DNA of 30,243 nucleotides from Pirellulaceae bacterium. Its GTDB lineage: Bacteria > Planctomycetota > Planctomycetia > Pirellulales > Pirellulaceae. Under the pieces are notes generated by a model that was not told where the DNA came from, made no database searches, and saw only the letters and a program-made list of their open reading frames with translations. The stretch lies in the NCBI GenBank assembly GCA_050485845.1, contig JBJHCD010000001.1, positions 1 to 30,243 on the forward strand, read 5' to 3'. Every line of letters starts with the position of its first letter. Position 1 is the stretch's first letter. Below, piece after piece: positions 22,552 through 25,682 of the stretch. Made by a program: the position numbers and the translations under genes.

Positions 22552-23595
22552 TTATCGACTTTCTCGAATCATCTTTAGCGTGGCGGTTGCCAGGGTGGCG
22601 ACGTCCTGGTCGCTGTCGTTCTCCAGGGTCTCGACAGGCTCCGTGGCGTCCTCGGCCTCGGGGCCCCAACTAGCCAGTGTCAGCAAGGCATGTCTCCGAA
22701 CCTCCGCGTCGGTATGCCCCAGGCTTTCCGACAATACCTGCCAGGCGGATGGAGCACGGGTCCGCAGGCGACCGAGCGCCAGGAGAGCGGCGGAGGAGAC
22801 GTTCGAATGAGAATCCCGTCCGAGGTCGACCAGACAGGCGACCACTCGGTCGGCCGAGTCCGGCAACTGCTTCCAGCCCTCGGGATCGCAACCCAGTTGC
22901 CCCAGATTTTCCGCCGCCAAAGATCGAGTTTCTCCGTCTGAATCCTGGGCGGCCTGCAGCAGAACTTCCAAGGCCGTCTCATGCAAGGTTTTGTCAGTTT
23001 GCGGCGTGCTCAGCACCAACGTCTTGGCCGCGCGAAGCCGGAGAACCAAGTCCGGATCCTCCAGCAAGGTCTGCAGTCCGGGTAAGGCCTCCCCAGCGGA
23101 TGCATGTAGTGCGCCAAGAGCCTCGAGCGACTCCCGTCGAGCGATGGTCGTTCCGTGCTGTAAAGTATTCAGTAGCGGCTTCACCGCCGCTTCTCCACTT
23201 CGTCCCAAGGCGACGGCCGCGAGTTGCCGTACGGTCTCGTCTTCATCTCCGAGTGCGACGCACAACGCGGCCACGACGCTCTCCGACTCGCCCCCTTGGC
23301 TCGCCAAACCACTGGCTGCCGACCGGCGAACTGAGAGAGGCCGATCCCCCTCCAATCCGCGGGCCAGATCCAATTCCGCGGACCTTCCCAGGCGTCCGAG
23401 CGCGATGGCAGCTAGTTGGGCGATACTTTCGTCGGATGCGTCGAGCCATTTCGCCAGTTGAGGATGTAGCTCCGGGCGGGGTTGCTGAACGGATTCCGAA
23501 AGCAGGGAGATCGATTCTAACAGTGAATCGTCACCGGGATCCCCTGAAGCTTGTCGAGTTGCCTTGGGCTGACTCCTGTTGTCGGTATCTACCAT
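22552..23595 (-). CDS. HEAT-repeat (PBS-lyase HEAT-like) protein
   Basis: About eight repeats of the pattern L.D.d..VR..AA.ALG (AIALGRLG, AAVALGRSG, SLEALGALH, AAENLGQLG, ALLALGRLR, ALLTLASWG). ATG 23595 overlaps the vgrG stop region (ATATGGTAG). Confidence 0.88.
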   Translation of the reverse strand: MVDTDNRSQPKATRQASGDPGDDSLLESISLLSESVQQPRPELHPQLAKWLDASDESIAQLAAIALGRLGRSAELDLARGLEGDRPLSVRRSAASGLASQGGESESVVAALCVALGDEDETVRQLAAVALGRSGEAAVKPLLNTLQHGTTIARRESLEALGALHASAGEALPGLQTLLEDPDLVLRLRAAKTLVLSTPQTDKTLHETALEVLLQAAQDSDGETRSLAAENLGQLGCDPEGWKQLPDSADRVVACLVDLGRDSHSNVSSAALLALGRLRTRAPSAWQVLSESLGHTDAEVRRHALLTLASWGPEAEDATEPVETLENDSDQDVATLATATLKMIRESR

Positions 23596-25310
23596 ATGTT
23601 TCCGGCCCCCGGTGTGTAGCTGGGTGAAACGACCGCATTGGTTATCAACGTTCCGCAGTGAATCACTCCGGAAGTCTTGAGCATCCCCGAGTTGACTGTA
23701 ACGAGCCCCGCGGTAATCTCAATCATCCCCGCGTCAATTTGAAGCTTGGACGCGGATTGAATCTGAATCACGCCTTCGCGACGAAGTTCAATTTGATTTC
23801 CCGATTCATCTCGAATCCGAAGTGTCCCCGCCTCGGCAATCAACTCGACCGATCCGGTGCCTCGCAACGTTATCTGCTGGGCCTCCGGTTGATCATCGAA
23901 ACGCAGTTCTTGTCCTCGGCTGGTTCGGATGGCGGTGACTCGAACATTATCTTCCGCCGGCTTTTGAAGACCGTTGTACATTCGTCCCGTGACGACTGGT
24001 CGGTCCGGGTCACCCCCCAGGAACTCCACCAAAACCTCTTGTCCAACGTCGGGTGGAAACCAGGTCCCCCAGCCATCACCCGCCTGCATTTCGGCGAATC
24101 GTATCCAGCAGGAGTCGGCCTCGGACTTGATCCATGGAAATCGAACGCGAACGGTGCCCGCCAAGTCAGGGCCTGGTGGGTGTTGCGCCACGATGGCGGG
24201 CTGAGGTCCGAAGATCATCGGCTTGGCAGCGGAACGAGGGGGCCGGTAGGTGGCCGACTCGGTAACTCGAACTGCCGACAGCGAGTTTCGATAGCCGAAC
24301 CGGGAATCATAGGCGTGGTCCACGTCCGTGAGAAAGTACTCACCTCCCAGGGACCGGTTTTCGCGAGCCCGCAGGGAAATGCGATGCCCCGCGGCCAGTC
24401 GGGGCTCTTGAGAGACTCCCTGATAAGTGCCGCGCCGAGTTTCCTCGCGTTCCATCCCGATCCGCGCTCTTTCGGCCGCCTGGCTGTTCGAGCTGACTCG
24501 ACCAGGATATTCCTGTTTCTCCCAATCGGTCGAAATGACGACTGGGTCCAGCGAGGCTTCGCGAGCCGTCAGCACTTCGGCGGACATTTCCTGATAGTCA
24601 CGCACCGAGTGGCTGCCGCCGTGGAGCTGAAAGTCAGCTCGCCAATGCGTGATGTCCTCCCCGAGATCGACTACCACTGGTCGACTCGGCCCCGCCATGG
24701 TGACTCGGTCTGCCAAAATTAGACGATGCTCGCCCTCTTCATGCTCGAAGTAGTAGAAGATCCCTTCCTCTTCGAGCAGCCGGGAAAGAAAGGTAAAATC
24801 CGTTTCCTGGAATTGGCAACAGTAGCGCCGCTGAGTTGTCCCACCGGAAAACCGCAGATCGCAGCGATGACCTTGTTGCCAATCGGCAGCAAGGCTTTGC
24901 AGAATGTCACGGGGAGTCTGATCTTCGAAGATGCGACACGACGTCGCGAGGTTCCAGAGTGACAGCCAAGGAACAACTCGTAAACGCTGAACATGTGGGC
25001 GTCTGGCCTCCTCGACCGGGACGATGGTAAGCTGTTGGACGATTCCGTGCCAATGTCGCAACGTCTCGCCGCCGCCAACGCCTCCTCGCCGTAGTTGAAT
25101 GGAGACTTCGCGTCCGATGATATCGCTGTCGTTGATGGTGGAAGGATCGAAAGTGAGCGGATCGACCGGCTCGATTTCGACGTCGAACGAGAACAGCCCG
25201 GAGACTCGCTCCCGACCCGTGAGTCGATTCACGTAAAAGGGAGTGGAAGTCCAAGTGGCGGAAATTTCCGGGCGGACGCCCGCATGAGACCAGGAAGCGT
25301 CAGTGGACAT
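23589..25310 (-). CDS. vgrG: VgrG/TssI-family spike protein (gp27 hub + gp5 OB-fold + short beta-helix), orphan
   Basis: Hub motifs LTGRERVSGLFSFDVE, VVPWLSLW...CRIFEDQTPRDIL and YCCQFQETDFTFLSRLLEEEGIFYYFEH; RPPRSAAKPMIFGPQPAIV; OB-fold SCWIRFAEMQAGDGWG...PDVGQEVLVEFLGGDPDRPVVTGRMYN; beta-helix-like C-terminus. Confidence 0.93.
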   Translation of the reverse strand: MSTDASWSHAGVRPEISATWTSTPFYVNRLTGRERVSGLFSFDVEIEPVDPLTFDPSTINDSDIIGREVSIQLRRGGVGGGETLRHWHGIVQQLTIVPVEEARRPHVQRLRVVPWLSLWNLATSCRIFEDQTPRDILQSLAADWQQGHRCDLRFSGGTTQRRYCCQFQETDFTFLSRLLEEEGIFYYFEHEEGEHRLILADRVTMAGPSRPVVVDLGEDITHWRADFQLHGGSHSVRDYQEMSAEVLTAREASLDPVVISTDWEKQEYPGRVSSNSQAAERARIGMEREETRRGTYQGVSQEPRLAAGHRISLRARENRSLGGEYFLTDVDHAYDSRFGYRNSLSAVRVTESATYRPPRSAAKPMIFGPQPAIVAQHPPGPDLAGTVRVRFPWIKSEADSCWIRFAEMQAGDGWGTWFPPDVGQEVLVEFLGGDPDRPVVTGRMYNGLQKPAEDNVRVTAIRTSRGQELRFDDQPEAQQITLRGTGSVELIAEAGTLRIRDESGNQIELRREGVIQIQSASKLQIDAGMIEITAGLVTVNSGMLKTSGVIHCGTLITNAVVSPSYTPGAGNIW

Positions 25311-25370: not shown

Positions 25371-25415
25371 CCAGAACCAGAAGAACCAGGACCAGTAGAA
25401 CCAGGACCAGAAACA
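25371..25415 (+). repeat. Three 15-nt purine-rich direct repeats in the vgrG upstream (divergent) region
   Basis: CCAGAACCAGAAGAA / CCAGGACCAGTAGAA / CCAGGACCAGAAACA. Confidence 0.8.
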
Positions 25416-25460: not shown

Positions 25461-25682
25461 ATGCCGATCATTATTAATGAAATGGACATGGGATTCCCAG
25501 ACGAGCCTCCCACCGAAGGTTCGCTCGCCAGTCGTGTCGCCGAACTGGAGCAGCATGTCGAATCCCTGGAGATGACCGTCCGCAACCTCGCTCGGTATTG
25601 TGAGGCATTGGAAGCGACTTGTCGAACGGCTTTCGCGGATTTGCCGGGTCAGGCACCCTTTCCCATTGTTCCTCGCCCCTAG
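25461..25682 (+). CDS. Small (73 aa) hypothetical protein with a coiled-coil segment
   Basis: AAGGA lies 10 nt before ATG 25461; heptad-like stretch LASRVAELEQHVESLEMTVRNLARYCEALE. The longer ORF from 25095 would overlap the vgrG start on the opposite strand. Confidence 0.6.
   Translation: MPIIINEMDMGFPDEPPTEGSLASRVAELEQHVESLEMTVRNLARYCEALEATCRTAFADLPGQAPFPIVPRP

What the first reader, a model, noticed from the sequence alone, without database searches (positions are those of the whole stretch)
23589..25310. Apparent hybrid spike: T6SS-type VgrG hub joined to an eCIS/baseplate-V-type needle ending in SYTPGAGNIW
Seen: the N-terminal ~450 aa carry T6SS TssI-type motifs. After the OB-fold (from about 23940 downward) the protein lacks the usual VgrG 'NELRFED...GEEQIYIHAQKD' wording and long DUF2345 or effector extension. 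It instead reads RTSRGQELRFDD...IRDESGNQIEL...IEITAGLVTVNSGMLKTSGVIHCGTLITNAVVSPSYTPGAGNIW. I recall this terminal ...TLITNxVxSxSYTPGAGNIW signature from stand-alone phage-baseplate-assembly-V (gp5-like) proteins of extracellular contractile injection system loci; this is memory, not a search result. Inference: a recombinant spike linking two classes of contractile machines, possibly with a self-contained tip or a non-standard PAAR interface. Such systems are barely characterised in planctomycetes.
Basis: partly seen in the sequence, partly recalled or inferred. Interest (0 to 1): 0.75.

Follow-up and report, generated by a model that had tools for sequence, protein, structure and literature searches.

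The report
T6SS spike with eCIS-type needle tip
This planctomycete gene encodes a type VI secretion spike whose short needle ends in a cap otherwise typical of phage-tail-like injection particles. Spikes with this cap always come with a HEAT-repeat partner gene and usually without the standard PAAR tip protein, which suggests a second way of finishing a secretion spike.

Summary
ORF 23589-25310 (-) encodes a 573-aa VgrG. Its hub and OB fold pass the T6SS TssI models. It lacks the canonical Gp5_trimer_C/DUF2345 needle and ends in SYTPGAGNIW.

The last ~85 residues match at least 594 loci in species genomes, and about 70 of the best 80 are stand-alone gpV genes in one syntenic PAAR-less eCIS cluster with a split gp27/gp5 spike.

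The "one-off recombinant" reading is only partly supported. The same tip occurs on VgrGs inside canonical T6SS core clusters (TssF-TssG-ClpV-VgrG). Every such VgrG but one is followed by a homologous ~330-aa HEAT-repeat protein. In a panel of 75 related VgrG loci, tip and HEAT co-occur in 9, and 65 have neither. PAAR genes lie within 4 kb of 0/9 tip VgrGs and 37/71 others. Six of nine tip genomes have no PAAR-like gene at all.

The window's gene belongs to a rare short-needle, orphan planctomycete sub-clade that adds a conserved divergent 73-aa ORF. The host genome has two T6SS clusters plus a separate eCIS with its own spike and PAAR.

Best reading: an accessory T6SS spike of a PAAR-independent class with a HEAT partner. 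This is a new variant of a known kind. The scan had already noted the vgrG-HEAT cassette on this same stretch.

The parts
23589..25310 (-). vgrG-like gene, 573 aa (P0001): T6SS-type hub and OB fold followed by a short needle
   Evidence: ORF. TIGR03361 303.9 bits and Pfam Phage_GPD plus Phage_base_V. Best solved relative is P. aeruginosa VgrG1 4MTK, E 2e-44 over residues 27-484.
24309..25214 (-). gp27-like hub domain (Phage_GPD, residues 33-334)
   Evidence: Outside the own clade the nearest hubs are canonical T6SS VgrGs at 30-32% identity.
23976..24173 (-). gp5 OB-fold domain (residues 380-445), ending in GDPDRPVVTGRMY
   Evidence: The OB fold is nearer to canonical VgrGs (median 76 bits, 52-60% identity) than to stand-alone gpV proteins (median 47 bits, maximum 72).
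23592..23975 (-). Short beta-helical needle (residues 446-573), of the same length and type as eCIS gpV needles
   Evidence: 579 hits, mostly stand-alone gpV. AF2 model with pLDDT 90, best structural matches AlgoCIS Alg8 and Anabaena Cis8 needles. Neck alignment.
23592..23621 (-). Terminal cap motif SYTPGAGNIW
   Evidence: Invariant in the clade. Y, P, G, G and N are invariant across 43 diverse tips. No solved structure aligns to the last ~25 residues.
22552..23595 (-). HEAT-repeat partner gene, 347 aa. Its ATG lies inside the Ile-Trp-stop codons of vgrG (7-nt overlap). No signal peptide is evident.
   Evidence: Pfam HEAT_2, 104 bits. Overlap read. Homologous proteins follow tip-bearing VgrGs in L011/L012, L013, L033, L035, L036, L037, L132 and L135-L182.
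25461..25682 (+). Conserved divergent 73-aa ORF (starts MPIIINEMDM, predicted coiled coil, two conserved Cys)
   Evidence: Conserved at the same position in L011/L012, L013 and L036. Not found in 60 relatives that lack the vgrG. Called as a gene on independent assemblies. No family above threshold.
25371..25412 (.). 15-bp tandem repeat (2.8 copies, CCAGGACCAGAAGAA) in the divergent intergenic region between vgrG and the 73-aa ORF
   Evidence: sequence read. Function not tested.

Best explanation
The gene encodes an accessory (orphan) spike for one of the host's two type VI secretion systems. It belongs to a rare class of VgrG whose needle ends in the cap SY[TS]PG[AV]GN[IV]x instead of the blunt ..GGxxMIN end that PAAR proteins bind.

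Shown:
- The hub and OB fold are T6SS-type.
- The needle and cap are the type found on the gp5 half of the split spike of a widespread PAAR-less eCIS lineage.
- T6SS VgrGs with this cap are almost always followed by a homologous ~330-aa HEAT-repeat protein, often translationally coupled.
- They have no PAAR gene nearby, and most of their genomes have no PAAR-like gene at all.

Inferred:
- The trimeric hub docks on Hcp and the baseplate as in any T6SS.
- The cap closes the end of the beta-helix, so no PAAR cone is needed or can bind.
- The cytoplasmic HEAT solenoid, made in step with VgrG, binds the capped needle as a dedicated adaptor, protective cap or cargo.

In the planctomycete sub-clade the needle is shortened to gpV length. 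The pair is detached from the T6SS core cluster and is joined by a divergently transcribed 73-aa coiled-coil protein of unknown role, possibly a regulator or chaperone.
For: - T6SS identity of the N-terminal 484 residues.
- The host genome has two T6SS core clusters (TssB, C, E, F, G, ClpV, Hcp and two TssK) and a separate eCIS with its own fused spike plus PAAR.
- Tip shared with eCIS gpV. Needle fold nearest to eCIS spikes.
- Tip VgrGs inside T6SS core clusters.
- Tip-HEAT linkage in a panel of 75 P0035-related VgrG loci: 8 intact tips plus 1 frameshifted tip all have HEAT, 65 have neither, and 1 non-tip locus has only a weak HEAT hit. The link also holds in seven other contexts. HEAT homology is shown.
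- PAAR within 4 kb: 0/9 tip loci against 37/71 non-tip loci.
- PF05488 anywhere in the genome: 1/9 against 12/16, Fisher p = 0.0036.
- Six of nine tip genomes lack PAAR, DUF4280 and Tox-PAAR-like alike. In three of them the tip VgrG is the only VgrG.
- Within this genome, the canonical VgrG on C39 has a DUF4150 PAAR-like gene downstream and the eCIS spike on C46 has a PAAR, while the tip VgrG has HEAT.
- No PAAR was found in any of the 80 tip-type eCIS loci. This agrees with Chen et al. 2019 (PMC6899500), who report that afp10 is absent from a split-afp8 subtype.
Against: - No physical evidence links VgrG and HEAT. The complex prediction gave no verdict.
- The cap structure is not modelled as a trimer. 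The last nine residues have low confidence in the monomer model.
- The tip genomes come from only 2-4 lineages and are MAGs of unknown completeness, so the PAAR statistics overstate independence.
- One planctomycete with a tip VgrG plus HEAT (G113) does have a PAAR elsewhere. Three of nine tip genomes have some PAAR-like gene, though in two of them it sits next to other VgrGs and in the third (G464) it is not beside the tip VgrG.
- HEAT-repeat proteins also occur in PAAR-containing vgrG islands such as PA0101 (PMC7970981), so a HEAT gene near vgrG need not replace PAAR.
- The window's clade is never seen inside a T6SS cluster, and its hub sits on a long branch. Its use by the T6SS is therefore inferred.
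- No RNA data were found.
Confidence: 0.6

Rival explanations
1. One reading: a recent recombinant. A T6SS vgrG of this organism acquired the needle of an eCIS gpV gene by recombination in the shared ELRFDD neck, giving a lineage-specific hybrid that links the two machines.
For: Domain mosaic. The neck is homologous in both families and loses the VgrG-specific loop exactly there. The needle has gpV length and the exact GNIW end of eCIS proteins. In the tip tree the VgrG group is sister, with weak support (SH-aLRT 84), to a group that includes planctomycete eCIS gpVs. The hub tree places tip VgrGs in at least three places.
Against: The architecture is old. P0121 and P0123 share it at 32-38% hub identity, and hub and tip trees agree within the clade. 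The homologous HEAT partner links it to tip VgrGs in other phyla. The AU test does not reject one origin. The genome's own eCIS has another needle type.
Confidence: 0.2
2. The protein is not a T6SS part. It is the fused spike (Afp8-like) of an eCIS or another non-T6SS contractile machine, encoded away from its cluster.
For: The needle and tip are eCIS-type. The genome has eCIS genes. The locus is not in a T6SS cluster.
Against: The hub passes T6SS-specific models. Solved eCIS spikes align only from residue ~306 onward, at E 1e-17 to 1e-5, against 2e-44 for VgrG1 over residues 27-484. The genome's eCIS already has a spike and PAAR in place. None of 80 tip-type eCIS loci has a HEAT gene. Relatives with the same tip and HEAT pair sit directly after TssF-TssG-ClpV.
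Confidence: 0.08
3. The HEAT protein is not a tip partner. It is a T6SS cargo/effector or a general accessory factor that merely travels with this vgrG lineage, and the cap has no bearing on PAAR.
For: HEAT-repeat genes occur in other vgrG islands that have PAAR effectors. The complex prediction gave no verdict. No toxin or immunity pair lies beside the cassette.
Against: HEAT follows the tip, not the hub lineage. It is present with all 9 tip VgrGs and with none of 66 non-tip relatives apart from one 19-bit hit, across hub lineages separated by well-supported branches. Start codons overlap in several lineages. Neighbouring PAAR genes are missing only at tip VgrGs.
Confidence: 0.12

Closest known systems
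Canonical T6SS spike VgrG/TssI (e.g. P. aeruginosa VgrG1 PA0091, PDB 4MTK/4UHV; TIGR03361)
   Same: gp27-like hub plus gp5 OB fold, GDPDRP..TGR motif and ELRF(E/D)D neck. Passes the family's curated cutoff. The host genome has T6SS core genes.
   Different: No Gp5_trimer_C/Gp5_C/DUF2345 needle. Post-OB part of 141 aa against 188-306 aa. Ends SYTPGAGNIW instead of ..GGxxMIN. No PAAR neighbour, with a HEAT-repeat gene in that place. Orphan locus.
Gp5 half of the split Afp8 spike in lineage II eCIS (Chen et al. 2019, PMC6899500; subtype IIb is the one reported to lack afp10/PAAR)
   Same: Needle length, sequence (36-57% identity) and the invariant terminal motif. No PAAR gene in the locus.
   Different: In eCIS the gp27 hub is a separate ORF of another type. 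The gene after gpV is a conserved 500-750 aa protein unrelated to HEAT. Assigning the tip-type clusters to subtype IIb is my inference from gene content and was not tested against dbeCIS.
Self-capped phage spikes: P2 gpV, phi92 gp138, R2 pyocin spike (PDB 3QR8, 3AQJ, 3PQI, 4S37)
   Same: OB fold plus short beta-helix that works without a separate PAAR tip. The needle model superposes on the P2 gpV C-terminal domain (TM ~0.5, 25% identity).
   Different: Those apex domains are defined by a C-terminal HxH motif that binds Fe (PMC12407873). No HxH is present here, so the cap is a different solution.
P. aeruginosa vgrG1b island PA0095-PA0101 and Tvp accessory complexes (PMC7970981; PMC13373197)
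   Same: A vgrG island that includes a HEAT-repeat protein (PA0101). OB-fold plus short-prism proteins (TvpC, DUF6484/DUF3540) show weak similarity to this needle.
   Different: Those islands are built around a PAAR or DUF4150 effector with DUF2169 (TvpA), none of which is present here. The HEAT gene there is distal, not coupled to vgrG. Homology between PA0101 and this HEAT protein was not tested.

Membership tests
T6SS VgrG/TssI | gp27-like hub (Phage_GPD) fused to a gp5 OB fold, scoring above the curated TssI model cutoff | tested here: met
   PF05954 208 bits, PF04717 71 bits, TIGR03361 303.9 bits (cutoff 186.35), TIGR01646 229.8 bits (cutoff 121.8).
T6SS VgrG/TssI | Canonical gp5 C-terminal beta-helix (Gp5_trimer_C/Gp5_C) with a blunt ..xIN end that receives PAAR | tested here: not met
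   No PF22178 or PF06715 hit. Ends GNIW, whereas relatives end ..MIN..KIN or ..ILQN.
T6SS VgrG/TssI | A T6SS core apparatus encoded in the same genome or cluster | tested here: met
   Two core clusters on C7 and C38/C267 and two TssK genes. The locus itself is orphan. TssM (PF06761) was not found in this 85.8%-complete MAG.
T6SS VgrG/TssI | Secreted by, and required for, T6SS firing | not testable with these tools
eCIS spike (Afp8/Pvc8/Alg8 or split gp27 + gp5) | Encoded within an eCIS cluster (sheath, gp19 tubes, gp25, Baseplate_J, Pvc16_N) | tested here: not met
   Neighbours are the HEAT gene, hrpB, a peptidase and an exchanger. The genome's eCIS pieces lie on C366, C856 and C46 and have their own spike.
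eCIS spike (Afp8/Pvc8/Alg8 or split gp27 + gp5) | Needle and tip of the eCIS gp5/gpV type | tested here: met
eCIS spike (Afp8/Pvc8/Alg8 or split gp27 + gp5) | Hub of the eCIS type | tested here: not met
   Solved eCIS spikes align only from residue ~306 onward. The hub aligns to T6SS VgrGs.
P2 gpV-type self-capped spike | HxH motif near the C-terminus forming an Fe-binding apex | tested here: not met
   No HxH in the last 60 residues. The single His at 551 is not conserved. Definition taken from PMC12407873.
TvpC (DUF6484/DUF3540) surrogate spike | Stand-alone OB fold plus short prism without a gp27 hub, encoded with DUF2169 and a PAAR-like gene | tested here: not met
   A full hub is present. 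DUF6484 scores 24.0 bits (cutoff 27.6) and DUF3540 13.5 bits (cutoff 27.9). No DUF2169 or PAAR gene in the window.

The most novel reading that the evidence does not exclude
The SY[TS]PG[AV]GN[IV]x end is a third kind of contractile-spike terminus, beside PAAR-capped blunt ends and HxH-Fe apex domains. It makes PAAR dispensable. It is used both by a major PAAR-less eCIS lineage and by a T6SS lineage in which a dedicated HEAT-repeat protein has taken the genomic, and possibly physical, place of PAAR at the tip.
Probability: 0.35. Interest if true: 0.8.

Novelty: new variant of a known kind. Interest (0 to 1): 0.62.

Why it matters
PAAR proteins are regarded as the standard tip of T6SS spikes. 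They sharpen the spike and carry effectors, and in several species they are needed for firing. A class of T6SS spikes that ends in a different, strongly conserved cap, lacks PAAR and always brings a HEAT-repeat partner would mean there is a second way to finish and load a T6SS spike.

Because the same cap marks a very widespread PAAR-less eCIS lineage, it also offers a concrete explanation for why that lineage lacks afp10. It provides a simple sequence marker for finding such systems. It shows that needle ends are shared or exchanged between the two machine classes. The hypothesis can be tested directly by a trimer structure, pull-downs and deletions in organisms where this is the only VgrG.

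Tried and rejected
- Complex prediction of three needle copies (445-573) plus the HEAT protein scored 0.30, just under the 0.32 mark. This gives no verdict and is not used as evidence either way.
- The region-restricted word search with residues 500-573 found only two proteins and could not count tip-bearing VgrGs.
- The search for related loci with the HEAT alignment failed because no stretch was conserved enough.
- A profile comparison of the HEAT partner with the conserved eCIS protein that follows gpV showed no relationship (probability 0.03). The two downstream partners are therefore not homologous.
- A profile search of the PDB with the tip found only the repetitive beta-helix part in solved spikes and nothing for the last ~25 residues.
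- The AU test for a single clade of tip-bearing hubs gave p = 0.073. Neither multiple transfers nor a single origin can be claimed.
- A protein search with the 73-aa ORF found only itself, and Pfam gave sub-threshold coiled-coil hits.
- No RNA sequencing run holds the locus; the holders are DNA metagenomes from mine tailings and lake water. Transcription and operon structure remain untested. The promoter and terminator scans gave only consensus-level matches.
- No orthologue was found in 60 genomes of the same family or order.
- I considered a decayed or truncated VgrG and rejected it: the ORFs are intact, the C-terminus is invariant and the partner is conserved across lineages.
Full report
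**The object.** The window is the whole 30.2-kb contig C1 of a planctomycete MAG with 1106 contigs, 85.8% complete. Planctomycete marker families PSCyt1/2, PSD1 and DUF1501 are present. ORF 23589..25310 (-) encodes 573 aa. Pfam finds Phage_GPD (33-334) and the Phage_base_V OB fold (380-445). NCBIfam TIGR03361 (TssI/VgrG) scores 303.9 bits against a cutoff of 186, over residues 20-484. The best solved relative is P. aeruginosa VgrG1 (4MTK, E 2e-44, residues 27-484). Solved eCIS spikes (Alg8, Cis8, Afp8, Pvc8) align only from about residue 306 onward and far more weakly. No Gp5_trimer_C, Gp5_C or DUF2345 domain is found. The protein ends SYTPGAGNIW.

**Surroundings.** The gene is not in a contractile-machine cluster. 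Downstream, a 347-aa HEAT-repeat gene (22552-23595) starts 7 nt inside the vgrG stop region, with its ATG inside the Ile-Trp-stop codons. Upstream lie a divergent 73-aa ORF and hrpB. Further neighbours are a peptidase, an exchanger and glycosidases. The same arrangement is seen on independent assemblies, including a 1.03-Mb contig.

Elsewhere the genome has two T6SS core clusters (C7; C38 continuing into C267), two TssK genes and two canonical VgrGs ending ..GGVIKLN and ..GSKIKEN. It also has pieces of an eCIS: sheath on C366; tubes and a fused hub-OB on C856; the needle end ..GSLVKIN followed by PAAR, gp25 and Baseplate_J on C46.

**The two halves.** A full-length search found a small clade (P0002-P0006, 45-81% identity, 528-574 aa, all ending SYTPGAGNIW). 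After a gap come canonical T6SS VgrGs at 35% identity or less, covering only the N-terminal ~80%. An exhaustive search with residues 450-573 found 579 proteins. Most are 100-250 aa OB-plus-needle proteins with the motif at their very end. Segment-wise BLAST shows that the hub and OB fold are nearest to VgrGs, while the last 83 residues are nearest to stand-alone gpV proteins (45-57% identity). Only one of 114 canonical VgrGs (P0035) shares the tip.

The neck keeps the VgrG-like ELRFDD. It lacks the VgrG-specific loop before that motif, as gpVs do, and the post-OB length (141 aa) equals that of gpVs. An AF2 model of residues 445-573 (pLDDT 90, but only 60 over the last nine residues) superposes best on the needles of AlgoCIS Alg8 and Anabaena Cis8 (TM 0.65-0.66). 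T6SS VgrGs reach 0.36-0.40.

**What the short proteins are.** About 70 of the best 80 lie in one syntenic eCIS cluster. Its order is Pvc16_N, sheath, gp19 tubes, CIS_tube, a separate Phage_GPD hub, gpV with the tip, a conserved 500-750 aa protein, gp25, Baseplate_J and P2_I-like. None of these loci has T6SS genes, a HEAT partner or a detectable PAAR.

Chen et al. 2019 report that lineage II eCIS subtypes IIa-IIc split afp8 into gp27 and gp5 ORFs, and that afp10 (PAAR) is absent solely from subtype IIb (PMC6899500). The tip-type clusters fit that description. This assignment is my inference.

**The tip is also a T6SS feature.**
- P0035 (632 aa, Syntrophobacteraceae) has a canonical neck and Gp5_trimer_C but ends ..SYSPGVGNIV. 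It sits in a full core cluster (TssA-B-C-Hcp-E-F-G-ClpV-VgrG) and is followed by a 334-aa HEAT protein whose start overlaps the VgrG stop.
- P0183 follows ClpV and is followed by a homologous protein.
- P0121 and P0123, which share the short architecture with hubs only 32-38% identical to ours, are each followed by HEAT.
- A planctomycete in another family (G113) has a ~700-aa VgrG ending ..SYSPGAGNVM plus HEAT.
- The one exception is P0201, which is followed by an Rhs-type gene.

In an unselected panel of 80 genomic loci related to P0035, 75 were complete with room downstream. Eight intact tips and one frameshifted tip all have the HEAT gene. Sixty-five loci have neither tip nor HEAT, and one non-tip locus has only a 19-bit HEAT hit. 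Seven of the nine tip loci lie directly after TssF-TssG-ClpV.

**PAAR.** PAAR genes lie within 4 kb of 37 of 71 non-tip VgrGs and of none of the nine tip VgrGs. Genome-wide, PF05488 is found in 1 of 9 tip genomes against 12 of 16 controls (Fisher p = 0.0036; the genomes are related, so this overstates independence). In the one positive tip genome the PAARs sit next to its three canonical VgrGs.

Adding DUF4280 and Tox-PAAR-like, six of nine tip genomes still have nothing. In three of those the tip VgrG is the only VgrG. Inside the window's own genome the contrast is the same: the canonical VgrG on C39 has a Tox-PAAR-like gene downstream, the eCIS spike has a PAAR, and the tip VgrG has HEAT. 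G113 does have one PAAR elsewhere.

**Evolution.**
- The tip tree is poorly resolved. It groups 10 of 15 VgrG-borne tips (SH-aLRT 90) beside a group containing planctomycete eCIS gpVs.
- The hub tree makes the short clade monophyletic (99) on a long stem. It places P0035/P0183, L132 and P0201 among different canonical VgrGs, so supported branches require at least three changes.
- The AU test does not reject one clade (p = 0.073).
- Exchange of the needle end between VgrG lineages, and between eCIS and T6SS, is therefore plausible but unproven. A recent one-off hybrid is unlikely.
- The short clade is rare. There is no orthologue in 60 relatives, and VgrG-borne tips occur in 2 of 401 sampled Planctomycetota genomes.

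**Mechanism proposed.** It is shown that this is a T6SS-type hub joined to an eCIS-type capped needle, with a dedicated HEAT partner gene and systematic absence of neighbouring PAAR. It is inferred that the cap closes the beta-helix so that PAAR is unnecessary, and that the cytoplasmic HEAT solenoid binds the capped needle as adaptor, cap or cargo.

Current classification (PMC12407873) recognises spikes with a fused HxH-Fe apex and spikes that need a separate, mostly PAAR, tip. This end has no HxH and no PAAR, and no solved structure covers it. HEAT proteins are known in PAAR-containing vgrG islands such as PA0101 (PMC7970981). Stand-alone OB-prism proteins (TvpC) are known as T6SS assembly factors (PMC13373197). 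Neither matches this module.

**The third gene.** The divergent 73-aa ORF (25461-25682) is conserved with the cassette in four planctomycete contexts and was not found where the cassette is missing.

**Verdict.** This is a new variant of a known kind and of moderate to high interest, because it points to a PAAR-independent way of finishing T6SS and eCIS spikes that can be tested directly.

Noticed in passing
L014:10711-12867 and the equivalent gene in 71 of loci L038-L117: In the tip-type eCIS clusters, the gene directly after gpV (the position PAAR holds in other eCIS) is a conserved 500-750 aa protein. It has no Pfam family and has a strongly hydrophobic, Cys-containing C-terminal segment. 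It is unrelated to the HEAT partner.
   Followed up: partly
window 25461-25682 (+): Conserved 73-aa coiled-coil ORF with two conserved Cys, divergent from vgrG. It is found only where the short vgrG-HEAT cassette is found. No family match.
   Followed up: partly
window 25371-25412: A 15-bp tandem repeat (2.8 copies) in the 150-bp divergent intergenic region between vgrG and the 73-aa ORF. It may be a regulator-binding array.
   Followed up: no
own genome contigs C7, C38, C267, C366, C856, C46: The genome carries two T6SS core clusters and an eCIS, a combination that Chen et al. 2019 describe as rare. The eCIS spike gene is cut by contig ends (C856 end to C46 start).
   Followed up: partly
own genome C7:749-3889 and C7:11208-12995 (-): One T6SS cluster has two adjacent TssC-like genes (498 and 547 aa) and a third, divergent TssC-like ORF (596 aa) on the opposite strand after ClpV.
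   Followed up: no
L137:3962-5881: A Syntrophobacteraceae-type tip VgrG reads ..VVSPSTALE at its end, apparently a frameshift or sequencing error inside the cap motif. The HEAT gene downstream is also in pieces.
   Followed up: no
own genome, whole: The TssM family IcmF-related (PF06761) was not found although two TssK and two sets of TssB/C/E/F/G are present. It may be missing from the 85.8%-complete MAG or be divergent.
   Followed up: no
L042, L043, L044, L057, L068, L075, L079, L089: About one in ten tip-bearing stand-alone gpV genes had no recognisable eCIS or T6SS neighbour within the fetched flank. Their role is unknown; they could be orphan spikes or TvpC-like factors.
   Followed up: no
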